A stretch of DNA of 64,000 bases from Chiloscyllium plagiosum. Taxonomy: Eukaryota. A program made the position numbers and the translations under genes. Location: assembly GCF_004010195.1 (NCBI RefSeq), contig NC_057754.1:1880306-1944305 (forward strand). The letters are read 5' to 3'. Numbering within the stretch: position 1 is the stretch's first letter; every line of letters begins with the position of its first letter. Below the pieces are notes generated by a model that worked only from the letters and a program-made list of their open reading frames with translations, was not told where the DNA came from and did not search any database. This document shows positions 1,667 to 63,500 of the stretch, piece after piece.

Positions 1667-2418
1667 GTGAGTATTTTGGCTTTGATATTCCTACTGCTTT
1701 GTATAATGTAAACATCGAGTCAGTTAGATGGGTGTTTATATGTGCACGTTGAAACCCCAATCTTTAATCCCCTGGACTGTATTAAAATCTTTTCTGGAGT
1801 AAAATTGATGCAAAGATTCCACTTAGAAGCTACAAGATCCACTCTGGTATGACATGGAGGTAAAATCTCAGCACCACCATGATTCCACACACACCTTCAA
1901 TATTAACTTTCCTCTCTTAGTGTGGAGGAGCTGGTATTGGACTGGGGTGGACAAAGTTAAAAATCACACAACACCAGGTTATAGTGCCAGCAGGTTTATT
2001 TGGAAGCACTAGCTTTCAGAGCACTACTCCTTCAGCAGATAACTAGTGGGGCAGGATCATAAGACACAGAATTTATAGCATAAGATTACAGTGTCATTGC
2101 AATTAAAATGATATACTGAACAAACTTAGATTGCTGTTAAGTCTTTCATCTTTTTAGAATGGATTGGAGGGTGTCAACACGGATACCACCATTTCACGGC
2201 GGTACTCATGTGACTCAGCCAACGTTGCCCATCTCGTACGCTGCAGGCAAGGATGCCCTGTGGTATGGTACATTGGCGAGACCGAACTGATGCTACAACA
2301 ACAGATGAATGGATGCCATGCAACAATCGCCAGACCAGGATGTTCCCTCCCAGTCTGGGAACACTTCAACGGTCAGGGACATTCGGCCTTGGATCTTTGG
2401 GTGACCATCCTTCAAGGA

Positions 2419-3172
2419 TATACCCACCCTCCCATCCTGGCACTTTCCCCTGCCACCGCAGGAACTGTAAAACCTGCACCCACACCTCCTCCCTCACCTC
2501 TATCCAAGGCCCTAAAGGAGCCTTCCACATCCATCAAAGTTTTACTTGCACATCCATTAATATCATTTATTGTATCCGTTGCTCCCGATGCGGTCTCCTC
2601 TACATTGGGGAGACTGGGCACCTCCTAGCAGAGCGCTTTAGGGAACATCTCTGGGACACCGGCACCAATCAACCACACCGCCCCGTGGCCCAACATTTCA
2701 ACTCCCCCTCCCACTCTGCTGAGGACATGGAGGTCCTGGGCCTCCTTCACCGCCGCTCCCTCACCACCAGACGCCTGGAGGAAGAACGCCTTATCTTCCG
2801 CCTCGGAATACTTCAACCCCAGGGCATCAATGTGGACTTCAACAGTTTCCTCATTTCCCCTTCCCCCACCTCACCCTAGTTCCAAACTTTCAGCTCAGCA
2901 CTGTCCCCATGACTTGTCCGGACTTGTCCTACCTGCCTATCTCCTTTTCCACCTATCCACTCCACCCTCTCCTCCCTGACCTATCACCTTCATCCCCTCC
3001 CCCACTCACCCATTGTACTCTATGCTACTTTCTCCCCTCCTCTATCTTAATTCTCCACGCTTCAAGCTCACTGTCTTTATTCCTGATGAAGGGCTTTTGC
3101 CCGAAACGTCGATTGCGAAGCTCCTCAGATGCTGCCTGAATTGCTGTGCTCTTCCAGCACCACTAATCCAGA
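2419..3172 (+). mobile_element. Second Penelope-like element (GIY-YIG C-terminus plus pLTR) nested in the first
   Basis: ORF part PGTFPCHRRNCKTC...NIIYCIRCSRCGLLYIGETG..LAERFREH...LEEERLIFRLG..QPQGINVDF; pyrimidine-rich 3' UTR; hammerhead-like pLTR. Confidence 0.9.
3083..3110 (+). ncRNA. Minimal type-I hammerhead ribozyme motif in a Penelope pLTR (intact core)
   Basis: CTGATGA-A-GGGC-TTTT-GCCC-GAAA-C-GTC; palindromic ACGT in place of helix III. Confidence 0.75.
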
Positions 3173-3988: not shown

Positions 3989-6381
3989 TTTCCAAATAAA
4001 CCCGTTGCACTATAACCTGGTGTTGTGGGATTTTTAACTTTCTCCCTTAGAACATTGACAGATGTCCCTTGATAGAAATCATTAGGAATATGGAGGGATT
4101 TGATCAGTAGTTACGGAGAAGACATTTCCACCTGTGTTGAGGAAAACCATTATTGGCTCTTTGAAAAACTGACCAAACTCCATGAAAAGTGCAGAGGACA
4201 AGGACAGGCATACCCCTGTTCTGGAGCCAGGAAGGTTGGGAGCACAGGTTTTAGGTTTAGAATCCAAATCAGCCGACTCTCTTGAAAAGCAGTGATGAAT
4301 ATTGGAAATCATGGATCTTGAATTGTAACCCTACCACCATTTTTACCTCTACAAGGAGTCTCCCTGGCTCCGTTAAAAAACAGCCCAAATTGTTCTTTGC
4401 GAAGAAATTTCTAGATTGGGCAATGTTTTTAAATTCTTTGAGCTAGGCCAGAACAAGCCATATATTTTTGAATGGAATGGATGTGTGCAGCACATTCTAG
4501 ATTCCCAGTTATTTATTTTTGCCATAAATCAGATGATTCATTGCCTTTTAAGGATAGTATTATGTCACTTAATGCACAATGCTTTACTCTGCTATTAAGG
4601 GATAGCTTTGCTCTTGCAATGGCACATATATTAATTGATAAGCAATTAAAGTTCATTCACAATTTTCTTTTTCATTGAGACCTTTGAATAGAAAAGTTTG
4701 GGCATGCAGATCTGAAGCATCCAGCCTTAAAAGATTGGTGTGATTTTTAAAGTCTTCCGTGTTCTAGGCAACCTGATTGTTTTGATAGGAAGATAAACTT
4801 CTGTTCCTTTAAGGCGCTCGGTGTCTGAGTATGAGATAAAGAACATTGTGGGTAGGCAGGATACCTGTGAGTTGCTCTGAGAATGCATTAAAAACACTCT
4901 GGTAATTATTGAATTTATAATTTTCACAAGAATGGGATCAATATTAAAATGCGCTGTTGCAGGCACAACATTTACCCACATGGCATGATAACTTTATATG
5001 AAATATTAGAGAACAAGGCAAAAGACAAGAAATTCTGGAAAAAAGTTTGGGAATGATGGCAAGACTCAGCAGGTTTGACTGCGGCTGTATAGAGAGAAAT
5101 GGTCTTTTTAAGTCTTGTGTGACTGTCCTTCAGGAATTCTGAATATCATATTGCCACCTACTCCAAGCACACGACTCTCAGCTCAGATTGAGATGTTTCT
5201 TTCAATGATATATACTTGATGGATGTAAAGAGCTGTTATCAAGGAGGAAAACATGCCTCCTTTAAAGATGGCGGGCAGAGGGGCTTCAACTTGAGTAAAA
5301 GAAAATGAACCTAAATTTGTATGGACTGCAAAACTAGTGAAGAGGGGGATGAAGTAGGGATAAGGTAAGGAAAAATTGATTATTTACCCCCAAAAAGTCA
5401 TGGCCCTTGGGTTCCTCTCTGTTTGCTTAGGACTCTCATTAACATCAGTAAACATTGCTTTATTAGTGTGAAAGATCTTTATGGTGCAGGAAGAGATGAG
5501 TGAGTAGAGGAGAAGATTTGTGTTGTTCTTCTTCACATACTCCTCATATGCATTAAAGGGTAATAAATATATTTTGTGTTTCGATTATTGCAATACATCA
5601 TAAAGCAGATTGCTTAGCTCTTTCTTGCTGACCAGCAAATTAGTTTGACAGTGGTTTGATTTATCTCTCAAAGTTATAGCACCTGCAAGTGCTTTGCGCT
5701 AGGTTGCACTTACTGAAATGTGTGTGTAAAATGTTCAAAGTGGTGGTAAATTAAATGCGATTTGTGGCTAATGTTGACTTACTGATTTAAAGTTGTCAGA
5801 AAAATATTGAACAGTCAGTTGCAGGTAGAAGGCATCACTGATATATTTCATGGAAGTTGCATTTTGTCGGATTAAGCTGCAGACCTTTTGCTACATTAAG
5901 TAGAAAATCTTTTCACTTTTATTAGTTCCAGAAGGCCTGCATACATGCTAATTAACCATATTTATTAATGACAGAACATTTGTTTGGAGCAGCTCTCTTT
6001 CTTAATTGTAATTTAAGGACTCCTCTTCACCTGTCCCAAATCTCTGCAGCTACCCTGTCCTTAGTTGGGAGATAAGATGGTAATATTAATGCTATCCAGC
6101 TGACTTTTTGTCTCAACCAGCCACGAGACTCATTGCGGTGTCATCTAGAATCTTGTTTCTTGGCCAGTTTTCCTCACTTTCCTTGAGATCAATTACCCAT
6201 GACTAACTCCATTGAACGAAAGGTAAGAGCATTATTGACAGTGAAAACTGGCCTTCAAACTAAGATGCATTTATTGTGATATGGAATAATCGTGTATATA
6301 TACCCACCCTTTAATTTATCATATTATTAGAATTAAACAATTGTTTTGAATCTGGATTCTTTATATATAAGTGTTGTTGAA

Positions 6382-8864: not shown

Positions 8865-8975
8865 TGACTAGGACAAAGTGAGGACTGCAGATTATTAAGG
8901 GCTTATGCCCGAAACGTCAACTCTCCTGCTCCTCGGATGCTGCCTGACCTACTTTTCCAGCACCACAATTTTTGA
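8865..8975. mobile_element. Short Penelope pLTR-derived element
   Basis: aaagtgaggactgcaga followed by gggcttatgcccgaaacgtc...; flanks ctcctcttcacag (8852-8864) and ctccttttcacag (8976-8988). Confidence 0.7.
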
Positions 8976-8988
8976 CTCCTTTTCACAG

Positions 8989-19162: not shown

Positions 19163-19778
19163 TGTGACCATACTCTGGCTTTAAAAGGTGAATTTTGTTC
19201 TGGTTTTGTTTTTGAAGAGAAGTTTTGAGCCATAGGTGCTGAGCTGTTTCTTCCCAGCCAATAAAATAAACAGCTTGTAAGGCCTTGGGCTTTTTAAAAT
19301 TGGAACAGTAGGAGCAGCCTGAATGGATAGGGTCAGGCTCCCACAGAGCCAGGGTTTTAGTTTAGCTTTCGGCAGTTGTTGGAGTATTGAAGTTGGCTGT
19401 GGATGCTGTCTTCCTCTCCCTGCTACAGCTTAAAAGCTTAGGTTCTCTCTCTTTGCTGGAATTGCACATGAGACAGTCTATTTTATTGAATTTGTCTTTG
19501 CCAAGAGCATATTAGCGGATGTAACTATATTGGAACAATTGCTGTTTTGTAGTTAAGTAATCTGTTATTGTGTTAGGTTTTCCAATAGTTAAAGCAAATC
19601 AATTCTTTCCTTTTTATTTTAATTCGGGCTAAGAATAAAGTGTGTCTTGCTTAAATCTGAGTAGTGTGACCAGTCAAATTACATCTGGAACACAGTATCT
19701 TACATTCACCTTTAAATAAGCTAAAAATTAGGCTATCTCCTTAATGTATTTGCAGGGAGTTTGGTCTGATCCATAACA
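19163..19778. mobile_element. Solo LTR (Gypsy-like)
   Basis: TGT...ACA ends, aataaa signal; 3' end tttggtctgatccataaca resembles the reverse of the 30081 LTR start. Confidence 0.6.
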
Positions 19779-20462
19779 TAAAGTCTGGATTGGTATCGTT
19801 GTTATCTATTACAAACTCATTGACTCCCAGTTACCTCGATTATGCACCCCCAAACCCTGCTTTCTGTAAAGACTCCATTCCATTCTCCAAGTTTCTCTAT
19901 CTCCATTGCATCTATTCCGATGATGCTAACTTCTACAAGAGGGCTCTGAAGTGTTCACCTTCTTCCTCAACCAATAATTCCTCACTGTCGTGGTTGACAG
20001 GGCCCTCTTCTGTGCCTGATTCATCTCCTGCACTTCTGACCTCACCCTATTGTCTTCTCTCCCATAACACTGATAGGCTCGCTCTGGGCCTTACTTTTCA
20101 CCACACCAGCATCCTCATCAAAAGGATCATGAGCCGCCCTATCCACCACTTCCACACATTTCAGAGCCCTCTTGTAGAAGTTAGCATCATCGGAATAGAT
20201 GCAATGGAGACAGAGAAACTTGGAGAATGGAATGGAGTCTTTACAGAAAGCAGGGTTTGGGGATGCATAATCGAGGTAACTGGGAGTCAATGAGTTTGTA
20301 ATAGATAACAACGATACCAATCCAGACTTTATGTTATGGATCAGACCAAACTCCCTGCAAATACATTAAGGAGATAGCCTAATTTTTAGCTTATTTAAAG
20401 GTGAATGTAAGATACTGTGTTCCAGATGTAATTTGACTGGTCACACTACTCAGATTTAAGCA
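19648..20462. repeat. 307-bp near-perfect inverted repeat (arms 19648-19954 and 20156-20462, 201-bp spacer)
   Basis: Arms align without indels; about 3 transitions counted by eye. Confidence 0.95.
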
Positions 20463-25290: not shown

Positions 25291-26693
25291 TTGTTTCACA
25301 TCAATGCTAAATACAGGCTGCTGTTACACACCACTTGGCATCACAATTCCATTTTGACTTTGCAATATTTTCTATTGTTAATCCACCTTCTTCTTACGGA
25401 TGATTGCAATGAGGGCTGGTTAGACAAAGAATTGATCTCGGACACTGCTAGGGATGCAACCCTTACTGCTGGGGGGATAGAAATACCTAATTCTCTTTCA
25501 AAGTCTTGTTTTTTCAAAATCTCCATTTCTTTCTCTCACTCTTGCTCTTTTAATCTCTCTGAATATTGAAATCAGGTATACCAAGCAAGATTAATTAAAG
25601 AAGTCCAAAAGAACAGACACAACAGTAGCTTCAATACATTCTTGGTCTCGTGTGGTTTGCATCACTCCTGGCCCTGGCTTTTCTTCTGGAAAGCACATCT
25701 TTTACCCATTCTTGAAAAATGGCTGGGCTGTTAGAAAATACAGCAAAGTACATTTTGAATTGTATTAACCTCCTTATTCGTCACATTAAAAGGCTTTTTT
25801 TTGCTGTTGGAGGTGACCACCACAGGCTCCTGCAATGCTGCTGACTTGTAGTGAGTGAAATGGTCACCAAAATTCTTGGCTGTGGAACATCCTGTCTGAG
25901 GTGAGGGCATCCTGCTCACTGACCACATGTGCTCCTTTGAGTCACCCATGCAAATCTTGCTTGCACAGGAAAGGAGGTGAGAAGCAGGTTGGCATATGAG
26001 ACAACATAACATGGGCATTGCTGGATCTGACACCATGTAAAGTATTGACCACCATACTTTAACTTCAAACTGGAAAATCTCAATCAGAGTTGTTAAATCT
26101 GAAATGTTTAACTTGGAAGGGATGTGTAATCTGATTCTGTCAGAGCTTTCAATAAGCATAAACTTAGATCCCACCTATTTTGCTGAACACCAGGCTCTGT
26201 GATAAATTAGACTTTCAATTAAAGAGCCGGCATAGATTTGGCAGACTGAATAGTCTTTATCTGTGTTGTAAAATTCTGTGTTATTCTAAATCAATGAACC
26301 TGCATTCAGTCACATATAAAGCACCTCTCACAGTTTGCACATTATAAAAACAAGCAGCCAGGATAAGCTGCAGCATAAGTTAATGTTGCCTGGAGCAGTT
26401 TGTTTAAGGCTAAATATACGTTTGTGCTGGAGAGCAACTAAAGGAAATAACCTTCAAATCTAATGTGGTAAAACAAAGCTTTGTCTGAATACTTGCAGGT
26501 CAGCATGAATCCTGATGGCATGCTTAGCTGCCAAGAAATGTTGCTTCTGTAGTATTTCTGCAGGACCAGGATTTCCCCCTGTGCTGAGTGAACATAAACA
26601 GTGGCCATTCCACCAAGACAGCAGCATCCTGTCAATCCACATGGAAGGCTACTCATCTCATTAACCATGGTTTAGCAAGCAGACACAAAGGAA

Positions 26694-27992
26694 GGAATAG
26701 TCAACATGGCTTTGTGCATGAGAAATCATGTCTCACAAACTTGATGGAGTTTTTTGAAGAAGTAACAAAGAGGATTCATGAGGGCACAGCGGTAGATGTG
26801 ATCTATATGGACTTCAGTAAGGCGTTCAACAAGGTTCCCCATGGGAGATTGATTAGCAAGGTTAGATCTCACGGCATACAAGGAGAACTAGCATTTGGAT
26901 ACAGAACTGGCTCAAAGGTAGAAGACAGAAGGTGGTCGTGGAGGGTTGTTTTTCAGACTGGAGGCCTGTGACCAGTGGAGTGCCACAAGAATCGGTGCTG
27001 GGCCCTCTACTTTTCGTCATTTATATAAAGGATTTGGATGCGAGCATAAGAGGTACAGTTAGTAAGTTTGCAGATGACACCAAAATTGGAGGTGTAGTGG
27101 ACAGCGGAGAGGGTTACCTCAGATTACCACAGGATCTTGACCAGATGGGCCAATGGGCTGAGGAGTGGCAGATGGAGTTTAATTCAGATAAATGTGAGGT
27201 GCTGCATTTTGGGAAAGCAAATCTTAGCAGGACTTATACACTTAATGGTAAGGTCCTAGGGAGTGTTGCTGAACAAAGAGACCTTGGAGTGCAGGTTCAT
27301 AGCTCCTTGAAAGTAGAGCCGCAGATAGGATAGTGAAGAAGGTGTTTGGTATGCTTTCCTATATTGGTCAGAGTATTGAGTACAGGAGTTGGGAGGTCAT
27401 GTTGCGGCTGTACAGGACATTGATGAGGCCACTGTTGGAATATTGTGTGCAATTCTGGTCTCCTTCCTATCGGAAAGATGTTGTGAAACTTGAAAAGGTT
27501 CAGAAAAGATTTACAAGGATGTTATCAGGGTTGGAGGATTTGAGCTATAGGGAGAAGCTGAACAGGCTGGGGCTGTTTTCCCTGGAGAGTCGGAGGCTGA
27601 AGGGTGACCATAGAGAGGTTTACAAAATTATGAGGGGCAAGAATAGGGTAAATAGACAAAGTCTTTTCTCTGGAGTGGGGGAGTCCAGAACTAAAGGGAC
27701 ATAGGTTTAGGGTGAGAGGGGAAAGATATAAAAGAGACCTAAGGGACAACGTTTTCACACAGAAGGTGATACGGGTATGGAATGAGTTGCCAGAGGAAGT
27801 GGTGGAGGCTGGTACAGTTGCAACATTTAAGAGGCATTTGGATGGGTATATGAATAGGAAGGGTTTGGAGGGATTTGGGCCGGTTGTTGGCAGGTGGGAC
27901 TAGATTGGGTTGGGATATCTGGTCGGCATGGACAGGTTGGACCGAAGGGTCTGTTTCCATACTGTACATCTCTATGACTTTATGACTCTATG
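26694..27992 (+). mobile_element. 5'-truncated CR1 LINE, ORF2 RT C-terminal half (frameshifted) and 3' UTR
   Basis: QHGFVHEKSCLTNLMEFF, YMDFSKAFNKVPH, SGVPQESVLGPLLFVIYI, SKFADDTKIG, LEYCVQFWSP, VWNELP; (atgactct)n-type tail. Confidence 0.95.
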
Positions 27993-35794: not shown

Positions 35795-35992
35795 ATATAA
35801 ACTGAAAGGACTGCAGATGCTGTAAATCAGAAACAAAAACAGAAGTTGCTGGAAAAGCTCAACAGGTCTGGCAGCATCTGTGAAGAGAAATCGGAGTTAA
35901 TCTCAAAGTCACCGGACCCGAAATATTAACTTTGATTTCTTTTCACAGATGCTGCCAGACCTGCTGAACTTTTCCAGCAACTTCTGTTTTGG
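35795..35992. mobile_element. ORF-less hairpin element made of two inverted pLTR halves
   Basis: aaaacagaagttgctggaaaag...cttttccagcaacttctgtttt; exact 13-bp TSD tccaggattttga (35782-35794, 35993-36005). Confidence 0.85.
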
Positions 35993-36034
35993 TCCAGGAT
36001 TTTGACACAGGGATATTTAAGGAATGGCAGCACA

Positions 36035-43223: not shown

Positions 43224-44285
43224 CAAGGTGGCGATGCTGGCAAGGTAGGCAACATTTGGATTTCTGAGTTAGTCTGCTCCAGGCAGCTGATTCCTCCCTT
43301 CTTTTCTCCCGTTGTCGCAGCAGAGGGGAGCAGCCGGAGCAGGCCTCCTGGCAAGGCCTGGCCTGGTGATGGAGCCAGGGACTCCTGATTGTGGTATTCC
43401 CGGAGCAGGGAATGCATGCATCAGCAAGGCAGAGGCTGAAGCGGTGGTGGTGTGGTATTCCCGGAGCAGGGAGTGCAGACATCAGCAAGGCAGTGGCTGA
43501 AGCGGTGGTGGTGTGGTATTCCCAGAGCAGAGAGTGCAGGCATCAGCAAGGCAGCGGCTGAAGCTGTGGTGGTGTGGTATTCCCAGAGCAGGGAGTGCAG
43601 GCATCAGCAAGGCAGAGGCTGAAGCTGTGGTGGTGTGGTATTCCCAGAGCAGGGAGTGCAGGCATCGGCAAGGCAGTGGCTGAAGCGGTGGTGGTGTGGT
43701 ATTCCCAGAGCAGAGAGTGCAGGCATCAGCAAGGCAGCGGCTGAAGCTGTGGTGGTGTGGTATTCCCGGAGCAGGGAGTGCAGGCATCAGCAAGGCAGAG
43801 GCTTCAGCAAAGCCAAGGACGCCTGGTTGTGGAAGAGTCCAGAGCGGGACTGCTGCTTATCAGCATTGTGGTGCGGTGGTTCCTGGTTGTGGTAGGTCAA
43901 GAGCAAGGGTCTCCTGGTTGTTGGTACGGTTGTGACAGTAGTGGAGCTGGGGGCTCCTGGCAGCAGGGTGAGTGTGGGTCCTTCGTGTGACCTGGCATTG
44001 GCAGCCTGTCAGCAGGGTGGGCCCAATGCTGAAGAGATGGCACCTGAAGGGTGGCGACTCTGAAATTGGTGGGTCTGGTGCAGGTGTCACTGTGGGTGTG
44101 GCCATCTCAGGGCTCGCGCCTCACGGTGGCGACAACGGATTGAAGATTGACTGATTGTTTTTCAGCTGTGCCTTTTTATTCTTGAAGTGTTCAAGTGGTG
44201 CCAGATTGTGGCGACAGTTGAAGTTTTTCACTATATTTTACCATGTTGCTCATTGTAGAGTACAAATGACAATAAATTATTATTC
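43224..44285 (+). mobile_element. GC-rich non-coding element with LINE-like tail, containing a minisatellite
   Basis: Starts caaggtggcg; ends aagtttttcact...gtacaaatgacaataaattattattc (resembles Rex1/L2-type 3' ends); GC content jumps relative to flanks. Confidence 0.45.
43391..43803. repeat. 61-bp minisatellite, ~6.8 copies
   Basis: gtggtattccc recurs at 43391, 43452, 43513, 43574, 43635, 43696, 43757. Confidence 0.97.
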
Positions 44286-44484: not shown

Positions 44485-44677
44485 AAGGAGAAAGTAAGGA
44501 CTGCAGATGCTGGAGATTAGAGTCGAGAATGTGTTGCTGGAAAAGCACAGCAGGCCAGGCAGCATCCAAGGAGCAGGAGAATCGACATTTTGGAAAGGCT
44601 TATGCCCAAAACATCGATTCTCCTGCTTCTTGGATGCTGCCTGGCCTGCTGTGCTTTTCCAGCACCATATTCTCAAC
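44485..44677. mobile_element. ORF-less hairpin element of inverted Penelope pLTR halves
   Basis: gctggaaaagcacagcaggccaggcagcatcc...ggatgctgcctggcctgctgtgcttttccagc; flanks ttaagaagggtc (44473-44484) and ttaagaagagtc (44678-44689). Confidence 0.85.
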
Positions 44678-45739
44678 TTAAGAAGAGTCTGCCAATTAAA
44701 TTCGCCATAGAAAGTTGAGGTTAATGCCTAATGCCATAAAGCAACTTTAAGTCATGAGATTTCTGTTTCTGCAATGCCACTCAAACCCTCTGGACCAGAA
44801 AGGAAACAATTTCTACCTTCAGTCTTAATCCTACAGGCAATTGTTCATAAACTTAGCTTTTCTTCCTTTCTTTTTTCTCTCCTTCAATACATTTTTTCTT
44901 ACCATGTCTGTATTTCCCTTTTTTTGTACATGATTTCATTCTAATTCACTCCATTTTATTCTCAATTGTTCCTCTTCTTTTCTCGATCCTTCAATATCAT
45001 TGATTGGAGTGATAGACAGTTGATCCTATACCTTTACCTTGTCACAGTATTAGCAACTTGGATTTCCAGCAATTGCAAAGATTTTTAGGGTGGAAGGTTA
45101 AAGGGGAAACATCTGAGTCTCATCTCCTTTCCAGCAAATTCTGGCCTACTGTGTTTGAGGCATTAGGACACAATAATTCATCACAGCAAAATTTGTCTGG
45201 ATGGCATCATTGAGGTGGCTTTAGCCTTATTTATGTAAACAGCAATTCATAGACCTAACATATGACCTGTAAATTCTGTCAATGAAACATATTTCTCCTT
45301 TATATACCTTTGTATATCTGTTATGTGAATTTGGGGGAAAAATAATGGAGGGGAGGGATCAAAGTAACATCAACTTGGGTTTATTTAGCACCTTCAAAAT
45401 GTAAAACTTCCAAATTGCTTTGCAGAGACAAAACTATAAAATTTGGATGGCAAACCATTTTGACAGATGACCATACATAGGTTTTAAAGAAATGCCAGGG
45501 AGGCAATGAGATGAACTGGTTTAGTGAGGAGAATTCCAAAGTGTATTAGAGTACTCTGGGCAAAAGAGATCAAAAGGGAGAAAACAGGAATAGGGTACTG
45601 AGCTGAATGATCAGCCATGATCGTACTGAGTGGTATATTAGACTTGAAAGGGCAAAATGGCCTACTCCTGCTCCTGTTGTCTGTGTATCAATGGGTCTGG
45701 CTTGCTGAAAGAATTATCACTGGTAATATAATTTTTTAA

Positions 45740-55560: not shown

Positions 55561-58325
55561 CGCCATATCACATGAATAAAGAGGGAAAGTTGAAGCAAAA
55601 TGATCCTGATGTCAAGGTGACCATCTCGCCTGATTCTGCCACTTATCTTGCCATTGCTAGTGTTGGTTAGATCTTGGTAAGATTCCATCCAAATATTTTT
55701 TATCACATATTGTAACATGGATTTCAGTGACTTTAGAGCAAGTCATTGAAGTGATCCTGTTCAATGCACCACACATCATCCATGATGATGAAATTCAGAC
55801 TGTATCTACAATGATCCATAGCATTAGTATTACATCTGGCTATCAAGGAGAAAAGCTGTCTGATTAAACAATATCAAAACAATATCAAAGCTGTCTGATC
55901 AAAGAAAAACATGAAAACGCAAAAACAAAACGGCATCTGAATCTGTATGCATGGCAACAGAATTGGAAAATCACAAGACGTGCATTAGATCTACTGTGTT
56001 TTATTGAGATTGACAGTTAATCTCAAATCCTTTATATTCACTCTTCAGCGATTTCAATTATGCAGACTAATTTGTGGCAGAAATTATTTTTGAGGTAAGA
56101 ATATGAATTTGAGATGTTTGAGAAAAACATTAGTTTGAAACAAATGGAAAAGATGTTGCTAGCCCTTGGACAAACGGTGGGATTGAACTGTGCAAGGATC
56201 ACTCCTCACATTCTGTCTGTGCTGGGGATTTAAAAGCAATCTATTGCTCTCTGTGATTCAGTGAAAATAATAAAAACAATATTGTTGCAATTTTTAAAAA
56301 AATCTGAGCAACACTTATTGTCCTGGCTGTTTCTGGACTCTGGCATCTCATCAGGAGGATAGGATAATAGCAGTAATCTTTAGAGTGAGAATATGACGGA
56401 GCCCTGACTCTGAAGCACTGATTAGATGTGAGAGCTGGTGATAGTGAAACAAATGTTTAACCTCCATCAGGTTTATATTCTGCTGCAGTTTGGTTTCGTG
56501 TCTCTTGCAGTTGTTCATTTCTGAATCGCGATTACTTAGAGTTATAGAGTCATATAGCACGGAAACAGACCCCTTGGTCCTACTCATCCATGCAACCAGA
56601 CATCCAATCTGACCTAGTCTCATTTGCCAGCAGTTGACTCATATTACTAAATCCTTCCTATTCATATGCACATCCAGATGCCTTTTAAATGTTGTACCTG
56701 TCTCCACCGGTTCGTCTGGCAACTTGTTCCATACACACACCACCATCTGCATTGACAAAGTTACCCCTTGGATCCTTTGCAAGTCTTTTCCCTCTCACCT
56801 TAAATATATGCCCTCTAGTTCTGGACTCCACCATCCTCGGAAAAAGACCTTGGCTATTCACCCTATCCATGTCCCTCATGATTTTATAAACCTCTATAAG
56901 GTCACCCCTCATCCTCTGATGCTCCAGGGAAAAAAGCCCCAGCCTATTCAGCCTCTCTGTCTATAGTTTAAATCCTCCAGTCCCAGCAACATTCTTGAGA
57001 ATCTCTCAAGTTTAACAACATCTTTTCTAAAGAAGGATGACTCGAATTGTATGCAGTATTTCAAAAGTGGCCTCATCAATATCCTTACAGCTACACCATG
57101 GTGTCCCAACTCCTATACTCCATGTTCTGACTGACAAAGGCAAGTGTACCAAATGCCTTCTTCGCCACCCTGTCTATCTGCAATTTCACCTTCACGGAAC
57201 TCTGCACCTGCACCCCTAGGTCTGTTAGTTCGGCAACACTCCCCAGGGCCCTACCATTAGTTGTATTAGTCCTGCCCTGGTTTGCCTTACCAAAACACAA
57301 CACTTCACATTTATCTAGGTTAAGCTTCATCTGCCACTCCTCAGCCCACTGGACCATCTGATCAAGGTCCTGTTGTACTCTGAAATAATCTTCTTCACTG
57401 TGCACTAAGCCACCTACTTTGATGTCATCTGCAAACCTACTAACCATACCTCCTGTATTCACATCCAAATCATTTATATAAATGCCGAAAAGCAACACAC
57501 CTAGCATCGATTCTTGTGGTACATTGCTGGTCACAGGCCTCCATTCCGAAAACAATCTTTTGCCACCATTCTCTGTCTCCTACCTTCAAGCCAATTTTGT
57601 ATCCAATTGGATCCAATGTGGTCTAACTTCCTAACGAGTCTACCATGTGGAACCTTGTTGAACACTTTTCTGAAGTCCAAATAGACAATGTCTACAACTC
57701 TGCCTTCATCAATCTTCTTTGTCACCTCTACAAAAAACTCAATCAAGTTAGTGAGACACAATTTCCCATGCTCAAAACCATATTGAATATCCCAAATCAG
57801 TCCTTGCCTTTCCAAATGCATGTAAGTCCTACCCTTCATTATCCCCTCAAACAACTTACCACTACTGACATAAGGCCCACTGGTTTATAGTTCCCTGACT
57901 TTTCCTTAGCACCTTTCATAAATAATGACATCTCACTAGCCAATCTCCAGTCTTCTGGTACCTCATCTGTGGCTGTTGATGATACAAGTATCTCACCAAG
58001 AGGTCCAGTAATCTCTTCCCCAGCATCCCACAAAGTTCTGGGAATCACCTCATCAGGTCCCAGGGATTTATCAACCCTTATGTATTTTAAGACCTCCAGG
58101 ACTTCCTCTTCGGTAATGTGTACTATTTTCGAGACATCATTATTTCCCCAAGTTCCCTAGCTAGCATATACTTTTCCACAGTAAATACTGATGTGAAATA
58201 TTCATTTAGTATCTCACCCACCTCCTGTGGTTCATCACATAAACAATCACATTCATCTTTAAGGAGCCCTATTCTCTCCCTAATTATTCATTTTGGTCCT
58301 TAATGTATTTATCTCTTCAGATTCT

Positions 58326-60140: not shown

Positions 60141-60296
60141 ATTGGAGCAAGAGTAGGGTAAATAGCCCTTCAAATCACCATTCAATAAGGCTATGGCTGA
60201 TCTTGTACCTCAGCTATTCCTCCACACAATGTCCCCATATGTCTTAACTACCATTGGAATAAAGTCTTCAGATTTGAATGCCTAATGCCTAAGCAT

Positions 60297-60510
60297 GAAA
60301 ATGTGTTGCTGGAAAAGCGCCGCAGGTCAGGCAGCATCAAGGAGCAGGAGAATCGACATTTCGGGATGAGCCCTTCTTCAGGAATTCCTGAAGAAGGGCT
60401 CATGCCCAAAACATCGATTCTCCTGCTCCTTGGATGCTGCCTGACCTGCTGCTCTTTTCCAGCAACACATTTTCAGCTCTGATCGCCACCATCTGCAGTC
60501 CTCAGTTTCT
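60297..60510. mobile_element. Palindromic pLTR dimer carrying back-to-back hammerhead motifs
   Basis: Arms 60296-60384 and 60385-60475 centred on ggaa|ttcc; 16-bp direct flank cctaatgcctaagcat (60281-60296, 60511-60526); inserted in a minus CR1 fragment (~60140-60700). Confidence 0.9.
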
Positions 60511-63500
60511 CCTAATGCCTAAGCATCCACAGCTCTCAGAAGTAGAGGATTTCAAAAATTCGCACCATTTTAGAATGAAGAAATTTTCCTTCCTCTCAGT
60601 CCCTAATAACAATCTATTTTCTCAGAATCTGTGGCCCTTGATTCTAAACTGTCCAGAAAGGAGAAACAACATCTCCCCTTTGGGATTAGTGCTTTCTTTG
60701 AAAAGCCCACACACATTTTGAGATGACTAAATTGCTGGCTGACTTAAGCAATTTATTTTTAAAGGAAGCCTTTTCACTCATGTACTTCATCAATGCAACA
60801 ACCAGTCAATAGTACTGCAGCAGTCATTGAAGAGGTGATTGTATTAATTTATTCTGGATTATGTTTGCAATTCATTAATCTTTTTAAAAACCAAAGGTTC
60901 ACGTTGGTCAGTGTTTTTGTGATTTAGAGATTAAGCACTTAAGGTGATCGATCTGCGAAACCTTACTGGGTTTTTCCTGGCTGCTCATTTTTTCAATGTA
61001 TCACCCTCCAATTTTTACCTCATTGGAGGTACAGTTCCTCAGATGCCAGGAGTTGGGCAGCATCTTACCCAAATATCTATTCTTAGTGTTTAAGTGTAGA
61101 ACATGCATGGTGATGTGTTTAGGTTGTTGCAGCATGGCCATGTTTCTACATTGTTCCCTGCTGCTTTACACTCCGGGAAGACGGGCCTTACATTCTGCTC
61201 TTCAGGTTGTCCTAAATGTTCCTTCCAGTCAACAAAGCACTTTTTGAAATGTAGTCACTTCTGTACTCCAGGAAACGGAGTGGCTGATATTCACAGTTAC
61301 CTTTAGAAAAAAAACCAAAGAAATAAATGGGCAGACAATTTGTTTTAGTGGTAATGTTTGACTAGGAGTTATTGGCCCCACTGTAATGAGGAATCAGAAG
61401 CAAGTCACCCAGCAGATTTTTCTTTTTCCTTTCCAATATCTGCTCTGTAGTATTCTATGTTCAGTACCAGTACCCAAGTCAAAGAAACACACACATACAG
61501 AATGCTCTCTACAAACAATGAACTGTAGGTGGGAGCTGGTAAACATGAATTTACCTAATATTAAATTGAAAACCCAAAGTGCTTGCCCTGCAAGTTATTG
61601 TGCTTTGAGCTTTCAGAGTCATGACTACAGACACAAGACTTGGTGATTAATCAACCTAGGTGCCTAACTTGTTTTTCGCTTGAACTGTTGGACATGGAGT
61701 CGAAAGAAACATTTGCTACTGTAAATTTACTCGTGTGAGTGCATTTGTTTCTGCTGGTCAAGCAGCATCATTCATGTTAATCTGAGAAGTTTGTAACCAG
61801 ACTGTCTTGAGGAGGAAGCCTTTGGATATATATGGGAACTTAATAACATGGGGGGAATGTAAAGTTTTGTACTAAATGCTATTCCCATCTGGCATCATGG
61901 AGTCTGTATTTTAGATATTGCTGCTGTTGTTTGCATATAATATATGTATGTATTATCTAGACCAGAAGTTTCCTTAGCCAGTCTTTGGGAATTTATTTCA
62001 CCATCAGTGATGTCCCAAGTCCCAAATCTAACATATGCTATAGGAGCAGAATTAGGCCAATTGGCCCACTGAGTCTGCTCTGCTATTCAGTCATGGCTGA
62101 TATGTTTCTCAGCCCCATTCTTCTACCTTCTCCCCGTCTGTCTTAAATACACTGAACGACTTGGCCTCCCCAACCCTCTGTGACAGATGTGCTGATTTGT
62201 GATTTGGACACATTTGGCTTTCCTTACAGCCTGAAGAGCAAATGAAGAAAATTTCTCAAGCTGCCTGAGCTCCTTGCAATAATACTTCTGATGCAACTCC
62301 CAAGATCTGTACAAAAACAAACTGGGGTGACTCTAATAGAATTCAGTTAACAGTATTGTACAATTATCTCATATTGTGCAAATTACAAATATTATTGCGG
62401 CAGAGTACTAATAACTGGCTTATTTTATCATATTCCCTTGAAGTTTAGTGTTGGTTTGAGTAAGCCAGTGTTTTTACTTTGAGTCTTTTAATTTAAATAA
62501 GATTTGAATTTTACATGTAAGTGAACAAACTGCATATTTACTGCAAGGCTGCACAGACCTCATTACAATTTGCTTTCTGCTGATTGTTTTTCCACTCTCT
62601 ATATTATAAAGAAACTCTCTTTTTAATCCTTGTCTACTGATCGTATTCAGCTTTAAATTGAATACCCTGTGGTATCGATCCTTTGTGCTGTGCTGAGATC
62701 CACCTTAAGAAATCGAGTTGACCCTTTAGGCTTTGAACCTTCACACTGAACAGCAAGTGATTGAATTAAATGCACAGTCCTGATATTTTAAAAAAAAGAT
62801 AGTGTGTACCTAATGAGCAGCATTCGCCTCTATTTGATCCCGAACTGCTATAGATACTGCCCTGTTAGTTTAAAGACTGAAAAGAGGATTATTATATGTG
62901 AGAGAAGACTGGATTGGTGATTATGATAAGACTTCGGAGTATCCTAGGCTGTTATCAGTAGCAAAGAAGTATCAAGGGTAGCAAACACAGAATCCCAGCA
63001 CAGTCTTTTTAGGAGGAGATTTTGGAAGTTTTTTTTAATCTTTTGAGTGCTGTACTTAAAAATTTGTTTCAAACTGTTTCTGTTTCTGAAGGTGCCCTCT
63101 AAATGTCATCAAATTCAACTTCTCATGGAATGTTCAGTAAGTGCACCAATTTTATTTGGCCAGTTTCTAATTATATCCATTTTCTCTGGCTACAAGGTGA
63201 AGTAGGCTCAATGCTGGTCTTCAAAAACCACAAAAAAAGCAGTAGCTTGTACATGTATCATTGCAAACATCTCCAGGTGTTTATACAAAGCAAGATGAAT
63301 GTCTCCTCTGCTGCACGTAAGAGTCTAAATGAAATTACATGTTAACCAGTTCATCGTGGACATGGACTTACAGCATTAAACCCACCTTAATTTAACACAA
63401 AGTTAGCACATTCACTGAGAACGTGAGAGAAAAATGTGTAGTACATTGGTCTTTGTTATGCTTAATGGACATCAAAACTAAGATATGTTATTGAAACAAT

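What the first reader, a model, noticed from the sequence alone, without database searches (positions are those of the whole stretch)
60281..60526. Palindromic 214-bp element with a hammerhead on each strand: candidate retrozyme-like mini-element
Seen: ~90-bp arms join with no spacer at ggaa|ttcc, just 5' of CTGAAGA on both strands (+: CTGAAGA-A-GGGC-TCAT-GCCC-AAAACATC; -: CTGAAGA-A-GGGC-TCAT-CCC-GAAATGTC), with a 14-16 bp TSD and no ORF. A decayed element at ~5020-5143 ends in a similar centre (ttcaggaattctgaa). Inference: a non-coding unit that reads the same from either strand and may be copied by Penelope RT in trans, or may yield long dsRNA that silences the family. Whether it moves as a unit is untested, and both cores here carry decay mutations.
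Basis: partly seen in the sequence, partly recalled or inferred. Interest (0 to 1): 0.72.

Follow-up and report, generated by a model that had tools for sequence, protein, structure and literature searches.

The report
Twin-primed Penelope palindrome, not a retrozyme
This 214-base mirror-image insert is real but is one of thousands of short head-to-head stubs of a Penelope-like jumping gene in a shark genome, likely built anew at each landing when both cut DNA strands copy the start of the gene's RNA, which would explain how this class of element gets its long-puzzling inverted ends.

Summary
The palindrome, both hammerhead motifs and a 16-bp target duplication are real. It is not a retrozyme-like unit. 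It is a head-to-head pair of the terminal repeat (pLTR) of a very abundant Penelope-like element: 48,752 exact core copies. This joint has 721 copies, 12% of 6,004 close joints, and 50 listed joints fall into 30 kinds. Copies with this joint span several subfamilies and are not a clade. Both arms of a copy share their subfamily, and left and right arms have no distinguishing sites. In 122 of 145 pairs one arm ends near +92 and the other near +128, matching the two reverse-transcription start sites that define the Penelope tail. In 25 of 53 unselected pairs each arm holds sequence the other lacks, so neither was simply copied from the other. Most likely mechanism: twin priming from both nicked target strands, run-off at a probably capped RNA start, then end joining. 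Each strand carries one decayed, hairpin-buried ribozyme, so no circle can be cut out. The architecture is published; I found no paper with this mechanism. The scan reported the same reading on other shark DNA (8 notes listed).

The parts
60281..60296 (+). Target-site duplication, left copy (16 bp exact; last letter also fits the element)
60297..60385 (-). Short inverted pLTR arm, about +1 to +90 (+1 = first base of the run-off end); ends at the inner RT start site, no tail
60355..60385 (-). Minimal type I hammerhead motif: core letters kept, one base of stem II lost, CpG decay at the helix III position
   Evidence: motif class from PMC4209133
60384..60385 (.). Head-to-head joint: a 2-nt microhomology shared by both arms at pLTR +1/+2
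   Evidence: 721 exact genomic copies of the 28-nt joint
60384..60513 (+). Long pLTR arm, +1 to about +130; ends at the outer RT start site
60384..60415 (+). Minimal type I hammerhead motif: the conserved G of the GAAA element is changed to A at 60408 (CpG decay), so predicted inactive
   Evidence: against intact copies
60476..60513 (+). One-sided 35-38-nt Penelope tail (the stretch between the two 3' end clusters)
   Evidence: PMC11167929, PMC3846280
60511..60526 (+). Target-site duplication, right copy (first 3 letters also fit the element end)
44486..44678 (.). Second head-to-head pair of a related subfamily with a different, asymmetric joint (long arm from +23, short arm from +10) and a 12-bp duplication with one mismatch
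2214..3163 (+). 3' part of a related parent element: GIY-YIG-like reading frame, then 3' region and pLTR with hammerhead
   Evidence: (PF01541, E 2.7e-4, just under the curated cut-off)

Best explanation
The palindrome is a truncated insertion of a Penelope-like retrotransposon, likely made in one step by twin priming rather than copied from an earlier palindrome. Shown: both arms are the element's pLTR, one ending near +90 and one near +130, joined at +1 and flanked by a target duplication. Inferred: the RT/GIY-YIG protein nicks both target strands about 13-15 nt apart. One 3' end primes at the outer RT start site (about +128) and the other at the inner one (about +92), probably on the same RNA. 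Because these sites lie only 90-130 nt from the RNA's 5' end, both cDNAs run off at +1, which is probably a capped polymerase II start in an initiator-like sequence. The two cDNA 3' ends are then joined by microhomology, here 2 nt, and filled in. If only one end primes, a solo pLTR results; if the template is a read-through RNA, the arms are longer. The product is predicted to be a dead end.
For: (1) Parent: the same pLTR follows a GIY-YIG frame in L122 and in window 2214-3163 and precedes an ORF start at about +167. A body fragment of the related subfamily is 90% identical to Chiloscyllium proteins with RT and PF26215 domains. (2) Series: among 99 unselected cores, 41 were in head-to-head pairs starting near +1, 31 were solos, 26 carried body sequence and 1 sat at a gap. 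The 3' ends of 158 young arms are bimodal: 67 at +90-104 and 76 at +125-139. (3) 122 of 145 pairs are one long plus one short arm, 4 long-long, 1 short-short and 18 have a cut arm; duplications were found in 116 of 145, 13-17 nt in 102. (4) In 25 of 53 unselected long/short pairs the short arm reaches at least 8 nt further 5' than the long arm (reverse: 6). In 3 the long arm is only the tail, and L196 has a short arm from -122 with a long arm from +79. (5) Arm concordance at subfamily sites is near complete, while a CpG-decay control site is at chance (67 of 83 versus 66.8). 21 of 58 rare alleles are shared with the own partner (8 of them one deletion), against a mean of 0.6 and a maximum of 5 in 2000 shuffles. 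(6) The parent has C at -1, yet truncated copies have G 3,955, A 1,854 and T 747 times. (7) 53 of 68 long ends share at least 1 nt with the target duplication. (8) In vitro, the anole PLE cleaves and extends both strands, starts RT at two internal sites that bound the tail, is predicted to be a dimer, and needs no ribozyme cleavage (PMC11167929, parts 1-2 read).
Against: The mechanism is read from end products only; no biochemical test was run. Support for one shared RNA is weak beyond subfamily level: within-copy distance is 1.40 versus 1.68 between copies of one subfamily, and a short arm's own partner is its unique best match in only 6 of 56 (tied 31, beaten 19). Subfamilies active at different times would also give few mixed pairs. 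Several joints hold short inserts that copy the neighbouring stem II sequence, so cDNA ends can prime on cDNA. In 7 of 10 solo copies with G at -1 the G lies within the target duplication, so the cap reading is indirect. RNA reads showed no sharp start at +1 (a polyA single-cell run dominated by read-through, so a weak test). No gap-free full-length parent was recovered: all 10 long frames fetched were assembly gaps.
Confidence: 0.7

Rival explanations
1. Two-ended priming as above, but each protein subunit copies its own RNA molecule.
For: It explains one long plus one short arm and arms that each hold unique sequence. The within-subfamily excess of arm similarity is small.
Against: Private variants are shared by both arms of single copies, such as an 8-nt deletion in L005. 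The long arm is the cut one 25 times against 6, as expected if it trails another RT on the same RNA.
Confidence: 0.12
2. Self-priming or fold-back: one cDNA, or an antisense template as proposed in PMC3846280, snaps back and is copied, and later deletions at the unstable centre diversify the joints.
For: It gives identical arms at once. 15 of 53 unselected pairs have both arms complete and 9 have only the long arm complete. Some joints hold inserts templated by the adjacent arm. It is the published interpretation of head-to-head PLE junctions (PMC3846280, passages).
Against: In 25 of 53 pairs the short arm has 5' sequence that the long arm lacks while the long arm has the tail that the short arm lacks, and 3 have a tail-only long arm. 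The short arm ends at the same +90-100 cluster as solo copies that have no partner, which fold-back does not predict.
Confidence: 0.12
3. One reading: a retrozyme-like palindromic unit that is transcribed, self-cleaves and is copied in trans as a family.
For: 721 exact copies of the joint, distinct duplications at 28 of 34 sampled copies, and RNA reads that cross head-to-head joints.
Against: The joint occurs in at least 5 subfamily types, as other joints do, and is not a clade (15 changes on the tree versus 18 shuffled; AU p 4e-99). Long and short arms do not separate (AU p 3.5e-4). The short arm ends at variable places with the duplication abutting. Each strand has one ribozyme, and forming stem II with an open core costs about 37 kcal/mol against the hairpin. 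95% of RNA reads on the pLTR run on into unrelated sequence.
Confidence: 0.04

Closest known systems
Endonuclease-bearing Penelope-like element insertions with inverted pLTR, one-sided 30-40-bp tail and TSD (Pen2a_Av in PMC3846280; PMC8557442 Fig. 2 legend)
   Same: Head-to-head inverted pLTR that is shorter by about the tail length, tail on one side only, target duplication, initiator-like sequence in the pLTR, GIY-YIG parent.
   Different: No body between the repeats, so this is the minimal member of the series. There are thousands of copies with a sharp 5' run-off point, and the duplications are longer (13-17 nt versus 8-10 in the rotifer passages).
Anolis Poseidon element PAc (PMC11167929)
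   Same: Hammerhead in the pLTR and two internal RT start sites bounding the tail. PAc starts RT 111-118 nt after the start of stem II, which corresponds to about +124-131 here. Both strands are cleaved and extended.
   Different: That paper does not describe head-to-head products. Here the main ORF starts at about +167, not at stem II, and 1-4 nt of target homology is common at the long end.
Dual minimal hammerheads on opposite strands, 100-700 bp apart, in Schistosoma PLE remnants (PMC4209133)
   Same: Minimal type I hammerheads on opposite strands, read there as truncated PLEs.
   Different: Here the cores are only 6 nt apart and the ends are mapped.
Non-LTR retrozymes (PMC7229834; bioRxiv 10.64898/2026.07.22.740005)
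   Same: Short, non-coding, PLE-derived, with type I hammerheads.
   Different: Retrozymes are same-strand tandem repeats with a ribozyme in each unit that release monomers and circles. This element is inverted, with one ribozyme per strand.
L1 twin priming
   Same: Both target ends prime on the RNA, giving a 5' inversion joined by microhomology.
   Different: In L1 the two cDNAs cover different parts of the RNA. Here they overlap almost fully and start at two fixed internal sites.

Membership tests
Non-LTR retrozyme | At least two consecutive same-strand tandem units, each with a hammerhead | tested here: not met
   The arms are inverted, with one motif per strand; definition from bioRxiv 10.64898/2026.07.22.740005, part 1 read.
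Non-LTR retrozyme | Ribozymes able to fold and cleave | tested here: not met
   By prediction only: the + core has lost its conserved G, the - core has lost a stem II base, and forming stem II costs about 37 kcal/mol on each strand. No cleavage assay was run.
Non-LTR retrozyme | Propagates as its own family | tested here: not met
   Not a clade, and no left/right diagnostic sites.
Non-LTR retrozyme | Abundant discrete linear and circular RNA of 170-400 nt | tested here: inconclusive
   One polyA single-cell run: 95% of 2,059 reads run on into unlike sequence, with no sharp starts or ends. No circular or small RNA library was available.
Endonuclease-bearing Penelope-like element insertion | pLTR belongs to an element with an RT plus C-terminal GIY-YIG frame | tested here: met
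   GIY-YIG frame directly before the pLTR; body homologues with RT and PF26215, some also with GIY-YIG. The RT link was made through the related subfamily, because full-length copies are assembly gaps.
Endonuclease-bearing Penelope-like element insertion | Inverted 5'-truncated pLTR copy, head to head | tested here: met
Endonuclease-bearing Penelope-like element insertion | One-sided 30-40-bp tail | tested here: met
   122 of 145 pairs are long plus short; bimodal ends.
Endonuclease-bearing Penelope-like element insertion | Target-site duplication of variable sequence | tested here: met
   116 of 145 pairs; single copy in host-repeat paralogues.
Endonuclease-bearing Penelope-like element insertion | Minimal type I hammerhead in the pLTR | tested here: met
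   Motif in 48,752 exact copies; matches the description in PMC4209133 by inspection; no Rfam hit.
MITE (non-autonomous DNA transposon) | Fixed terminal inverted repeats at both ends and a fixed short duplication | tested here: not met
   The ends are unequal (tail on one side) and vary by several bases; duplications are 13-17 nt. MITE features recalled.

The most novel reading that the evidence does not exclude
Shark genomes hold a fossil record of tens of thousands of single Penelope insertion events. It shows that the class normally integrates by a dimeric enzyme priming from both target nicks at two fixed sites on one capped RNA. Inverted pLTRs, the one-sided tail, solo pLTRs and the 13-17-bp duplication would then be products of one reaction that does not use ribozyme cleavage, and the thousands of resulting hairpins may feed silencing of the family.
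Probability: 0.5. Interest if true: 0.62.

Novelty: new member of a known kind. Interest (0 to 1): 0.4.

Why it matters
The object itself is ordinary: a decayed stub among thousands, with an architecture already drawn for Penelope-like elements. The value lies in the series. PMC8557442 names the formation of tandem/inverted repeats and tails as an undefined step of PLE transposition, and PMC3846280 explains head-to-head junctions by self-priming on an antisense template. The end statistics here favour twin priming on a sense, probably capped RNA, and tie directly to the two RT start sites of the one existing in vitro system, where the idea can be tested now. It also warns annotators that these palindromes are not a separate retrozyme, MITE or miRNA family.

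Tried and rejected
Rfam gave no hammerhead family hit, only sub-threshold miRNA hairpins.

Search for a full-length parent: all 10 long open frames fetched were runs of N, and none of 20 ORF-start loci held a long continuation.

Sequencing runs: no indexed holder is on record as RNA. Run X20 gave 0 reads (no test).

Ribozyme cleavage as the source of the 5' end: rejected. The predicted site is after +32, while 5' starts pile up at 0 to +5 (78 of 158) with only single copies at +28 to +35. That sample is mostly selected for an intact core, so it under-counts cut ends.

Splicing as the source of +1: rejected, because the parent has no AG at -2/-1.

Empty-site test against loci already held: found nothing. 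It worked with new paralogues.

Short-end microhomology counts are unreliable because only 4 templates were available. Five longer window ORFs gave no Pfam family, so no host gene was placed.

Literature: Penelope + twin priming gave 3 papers, none about PLE mechanism by title and abstract start. Penelope + shark + palindrom + non-autonomous gave 1 unrelated review. One search listed 6 papers and one search listed 2, none describing this. Most subscription journals, Repbase reports and supplements (such as Fig. S2 of PMC11167929) were not seen and could hold the same observation.

Full report
Observation. The window shows a 16-bp direct repeat (60281-60296, 60511-60526) around 214 bp whose arms meet without a spacer at 60384/60385. 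The arms are 92% complementary, and the RNA folds far better than 200 shuffles (z -19.9). Both hammerhead-like strings are present as written. The + core has lost the conserved G of its GAAA element, and the - core has lost one stem II base. The right arm is about 38 nt longer than the left. The insert sits in an old repeat: 11 paralogues show the target once, and 2 align through both flanks in exact register. The element at 5020-5143 is one old arm of another subfamily ending in a 15-nt near-palindrome, without a second arm.

What the arms are. The same sequence follows a GIY-YIG reading frame at window 2214-3163 and in L122, and precedes an ORF that starts at about +167, where +1 is the first base of the arm. 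A body fragment of the related subfamily is 90% identical to Chiloscyllium punctatum proteins with RT and PF26215 domains, and more distant hits also carry GIY-YIG (33 hits among 101 candidates). So the arms are the pLTR of a Penelope-like element in a bamboo-shark-like genome. No gap-free full-length copy was found: 10 of 10 long frames were assembly gaps. The 35-nt hammerhead core has 48,752 exact copies.

Is the palindrome a unit? The exact 28-nt joint has 721 copies, its ATG-core variant 121 and the mixed form 7; random pairing of arms would give about 213. Allowing 0-12 nt between the cores gives 6,004 joints, so this one is 12%. The 50 listed (my count) fall into 30 kinds: 11 of one 5-nt kind, 6 of a 9-nt kind, 4 of this kind, two kinds twice, and 25 seen once. 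In 98 pairs of at least 88% identity (47 of 145 left out as older or not long plus short), the arms agree at subfamily sites in 78 of 78, 79 of 79 and 84 of 84 pairs, and in 78 of 85 to 90 of 92 at others. A CpG-decay site agrees only at chance (67 of 83 versus 66.8), which argues against later homogenisation. Allele counts are the same in long and short arms. On a tree of 66 long arms, the 31 with this joint need 15 changes (shuffles 18), and one clade is rejected. On a tree of 56 pairs, long and short arms do not separate.

How it forms. Of 99 unselected cores, 41 lie in head-to-head pairs beginning near +1, 31 are solos (19 short, 12 long), 26 carry body sequence and 1 abuts a gap. The 3' ends of 158 young arms cluster at +90-104 (67) and +125-139 (76). 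Of 145 pairs, 122 have one long and one short arm, and 116 have a duplication, 13-17 nt in 102. PMC11167929 (parts 1-2 of 4 read) shows that an anole PLE cleaves and extends both strands, starts RT at two internal sites that bound the tail, and does not need ribozyme cleavage. Its start region, 111-118 nt after stem II begins, maps to the long-end cluster here. Among 53 unselected long/short pairs, the short arm reaches at least 8 nt further 5' in 25 and the long arm in 6, and 3 long arms are only the tail (a further old case at window 8871-8980). In those pairs each arm holds sequence the other lacks, so both were likely copied from RNA. The bias towards cut long arms fits one RT trailing another on the same molecule, and 21 of 58 rare alleles are shared within a copy (8 from one deletion; shuffles 0.6). 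Against this, the within-subfamily excess is small (1.40 versus 1.68), and the own partner is the unique best match in only 6 of 56. At the long end, 53 of 68 copies share at least one base with the target duplication.

The 5' run-off point. 78 of 158 arms start at 0 to +5, not at the predicted cleavage site after +32. The parent reads TC before +1, which resembles a polymerase II initiator (recalled consensus; PMC3846280 notes an Inr-like sequence in rotifer pLTRs). Where the base before +1 is not the parent's C, it is G 3,955 times, A 1,854 and T 747, in a window of roughly 40% GC. Of 30 such G loci, 2 were a joint that itself supplies the G, 15 other inverted joints, 10 solos and 3 other; in 7 of the 10 solos the G lies inside the duplication. 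A reverse-transcribed cap is the simplest reading but is indirect.

Ribozyme and RNA. Each strand has one motif, so no monomer can be cut out, and forming stem II with an open core costs about 37 kcal/mol against the hairpin on either strand. In one polyA single-cell run, 2,059 reads lay on a pLTR copy on both strands, 95% ran on into unrelated sequence, some crossed head-to-head joints, and no sharp start or end appeared; a second run gave none. This shows passive transcription of the family, so hairpin RNA can exist, but silencing is untested.

Comparison. PMC3846280 (passages) describes the inverted, shorter pLTR, the one-sided tail and the duplication, and explains head-to-head palindromes by self-priming on an antisense template. 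PMC8557442 (passages) calls the origin of these structures undefined. PMC4209133 (part 1 and passages) reports minimal hammerheads in pLTRs and pairs on opposite strands. Non-LTR retrozymes are same-strand tandems expressed as circles (PMC7229834, abstract; bioRxiv 10.64898/2026.07.22.740005, part 1 and passages), and the element fails that definition. Searches listed no paper that proposes twin priming for PLEs; subscription journals, Repbase and supplements were not seen. My reading was written down before the look-up of earlier findings. Eight notes give the same reading on other DNA; they are not independent evidence, and one led me to PMC3846280.

Verdict. A real but ordinary truncated Penelope insertion, not a new mobile ribozyme element. 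Its interest lies in the testable insertion mechanism that the series of copies suggests. Interest 0.4.

Noticed in passing
window 8871-8980: Head-to-head insertion whose long arm is only about 25 nt of the tail, joined to a short arm from +11, with an imperfect duplication: the clearest twin-priming type inside the window.
   Followed up: partly
window 35799-35993: Head-to-head long/short pair of an older, different pLTR family with a 12-bp duplication, so the pattern is not limited to one family.
   Followed up: partly
L170 1414-1976; L162, L169, L172, L186, L190, L191: Short same-strand tandems of pLTR plus 20-150 nt of ORF start, with units of about 150-280 bp and a hammerhead in most units. 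These, not the palindromes, fit the non-LTR retrozyme layout.
   Followed up: no
L302 1369-4932: Inverted short pLTR and long pLTR about 3.4 kb apart around a gapped body: probably a long member of the same series.
   Followed up: partly
L177 1540, 1578, 1620 (run X19): T>C differences (A>G on the element's sense strand) far commoner on one read strand, e.g. 133 of 604 versus 3 of 212 at 1540. This could be A-to-I editing of hairpin RNA or one highly expressed variant locus; it needs DNA of the same animal.
   Followed up: no
L312, L095, L248, L251 joints: Joint fillers that repeat the neighbouring arm sequence two or three times, like templated insertions of polymerase-theta end joining (recalled).
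   Followed up: partly
window 61258-62041: One contig of run X15 joins 61257 to 62042 with 16 other letters: a possible deletion allele or a paralogue.
   Followed up: no
window 19648-19954 and 20156-20462: 307-bp inverted repeat, 99% identical, inside a Penelope-like fragment.
   Followed up: no
window 43390-43803: Tandem array of a 61-bp unit.
   Followed up: no
window 26588-27982 and 56537-57793: Two LINE fragments with RT remnants (RVT_1 on 26866-27330) in opposite orientation, 75% alike.
   Followed up: no
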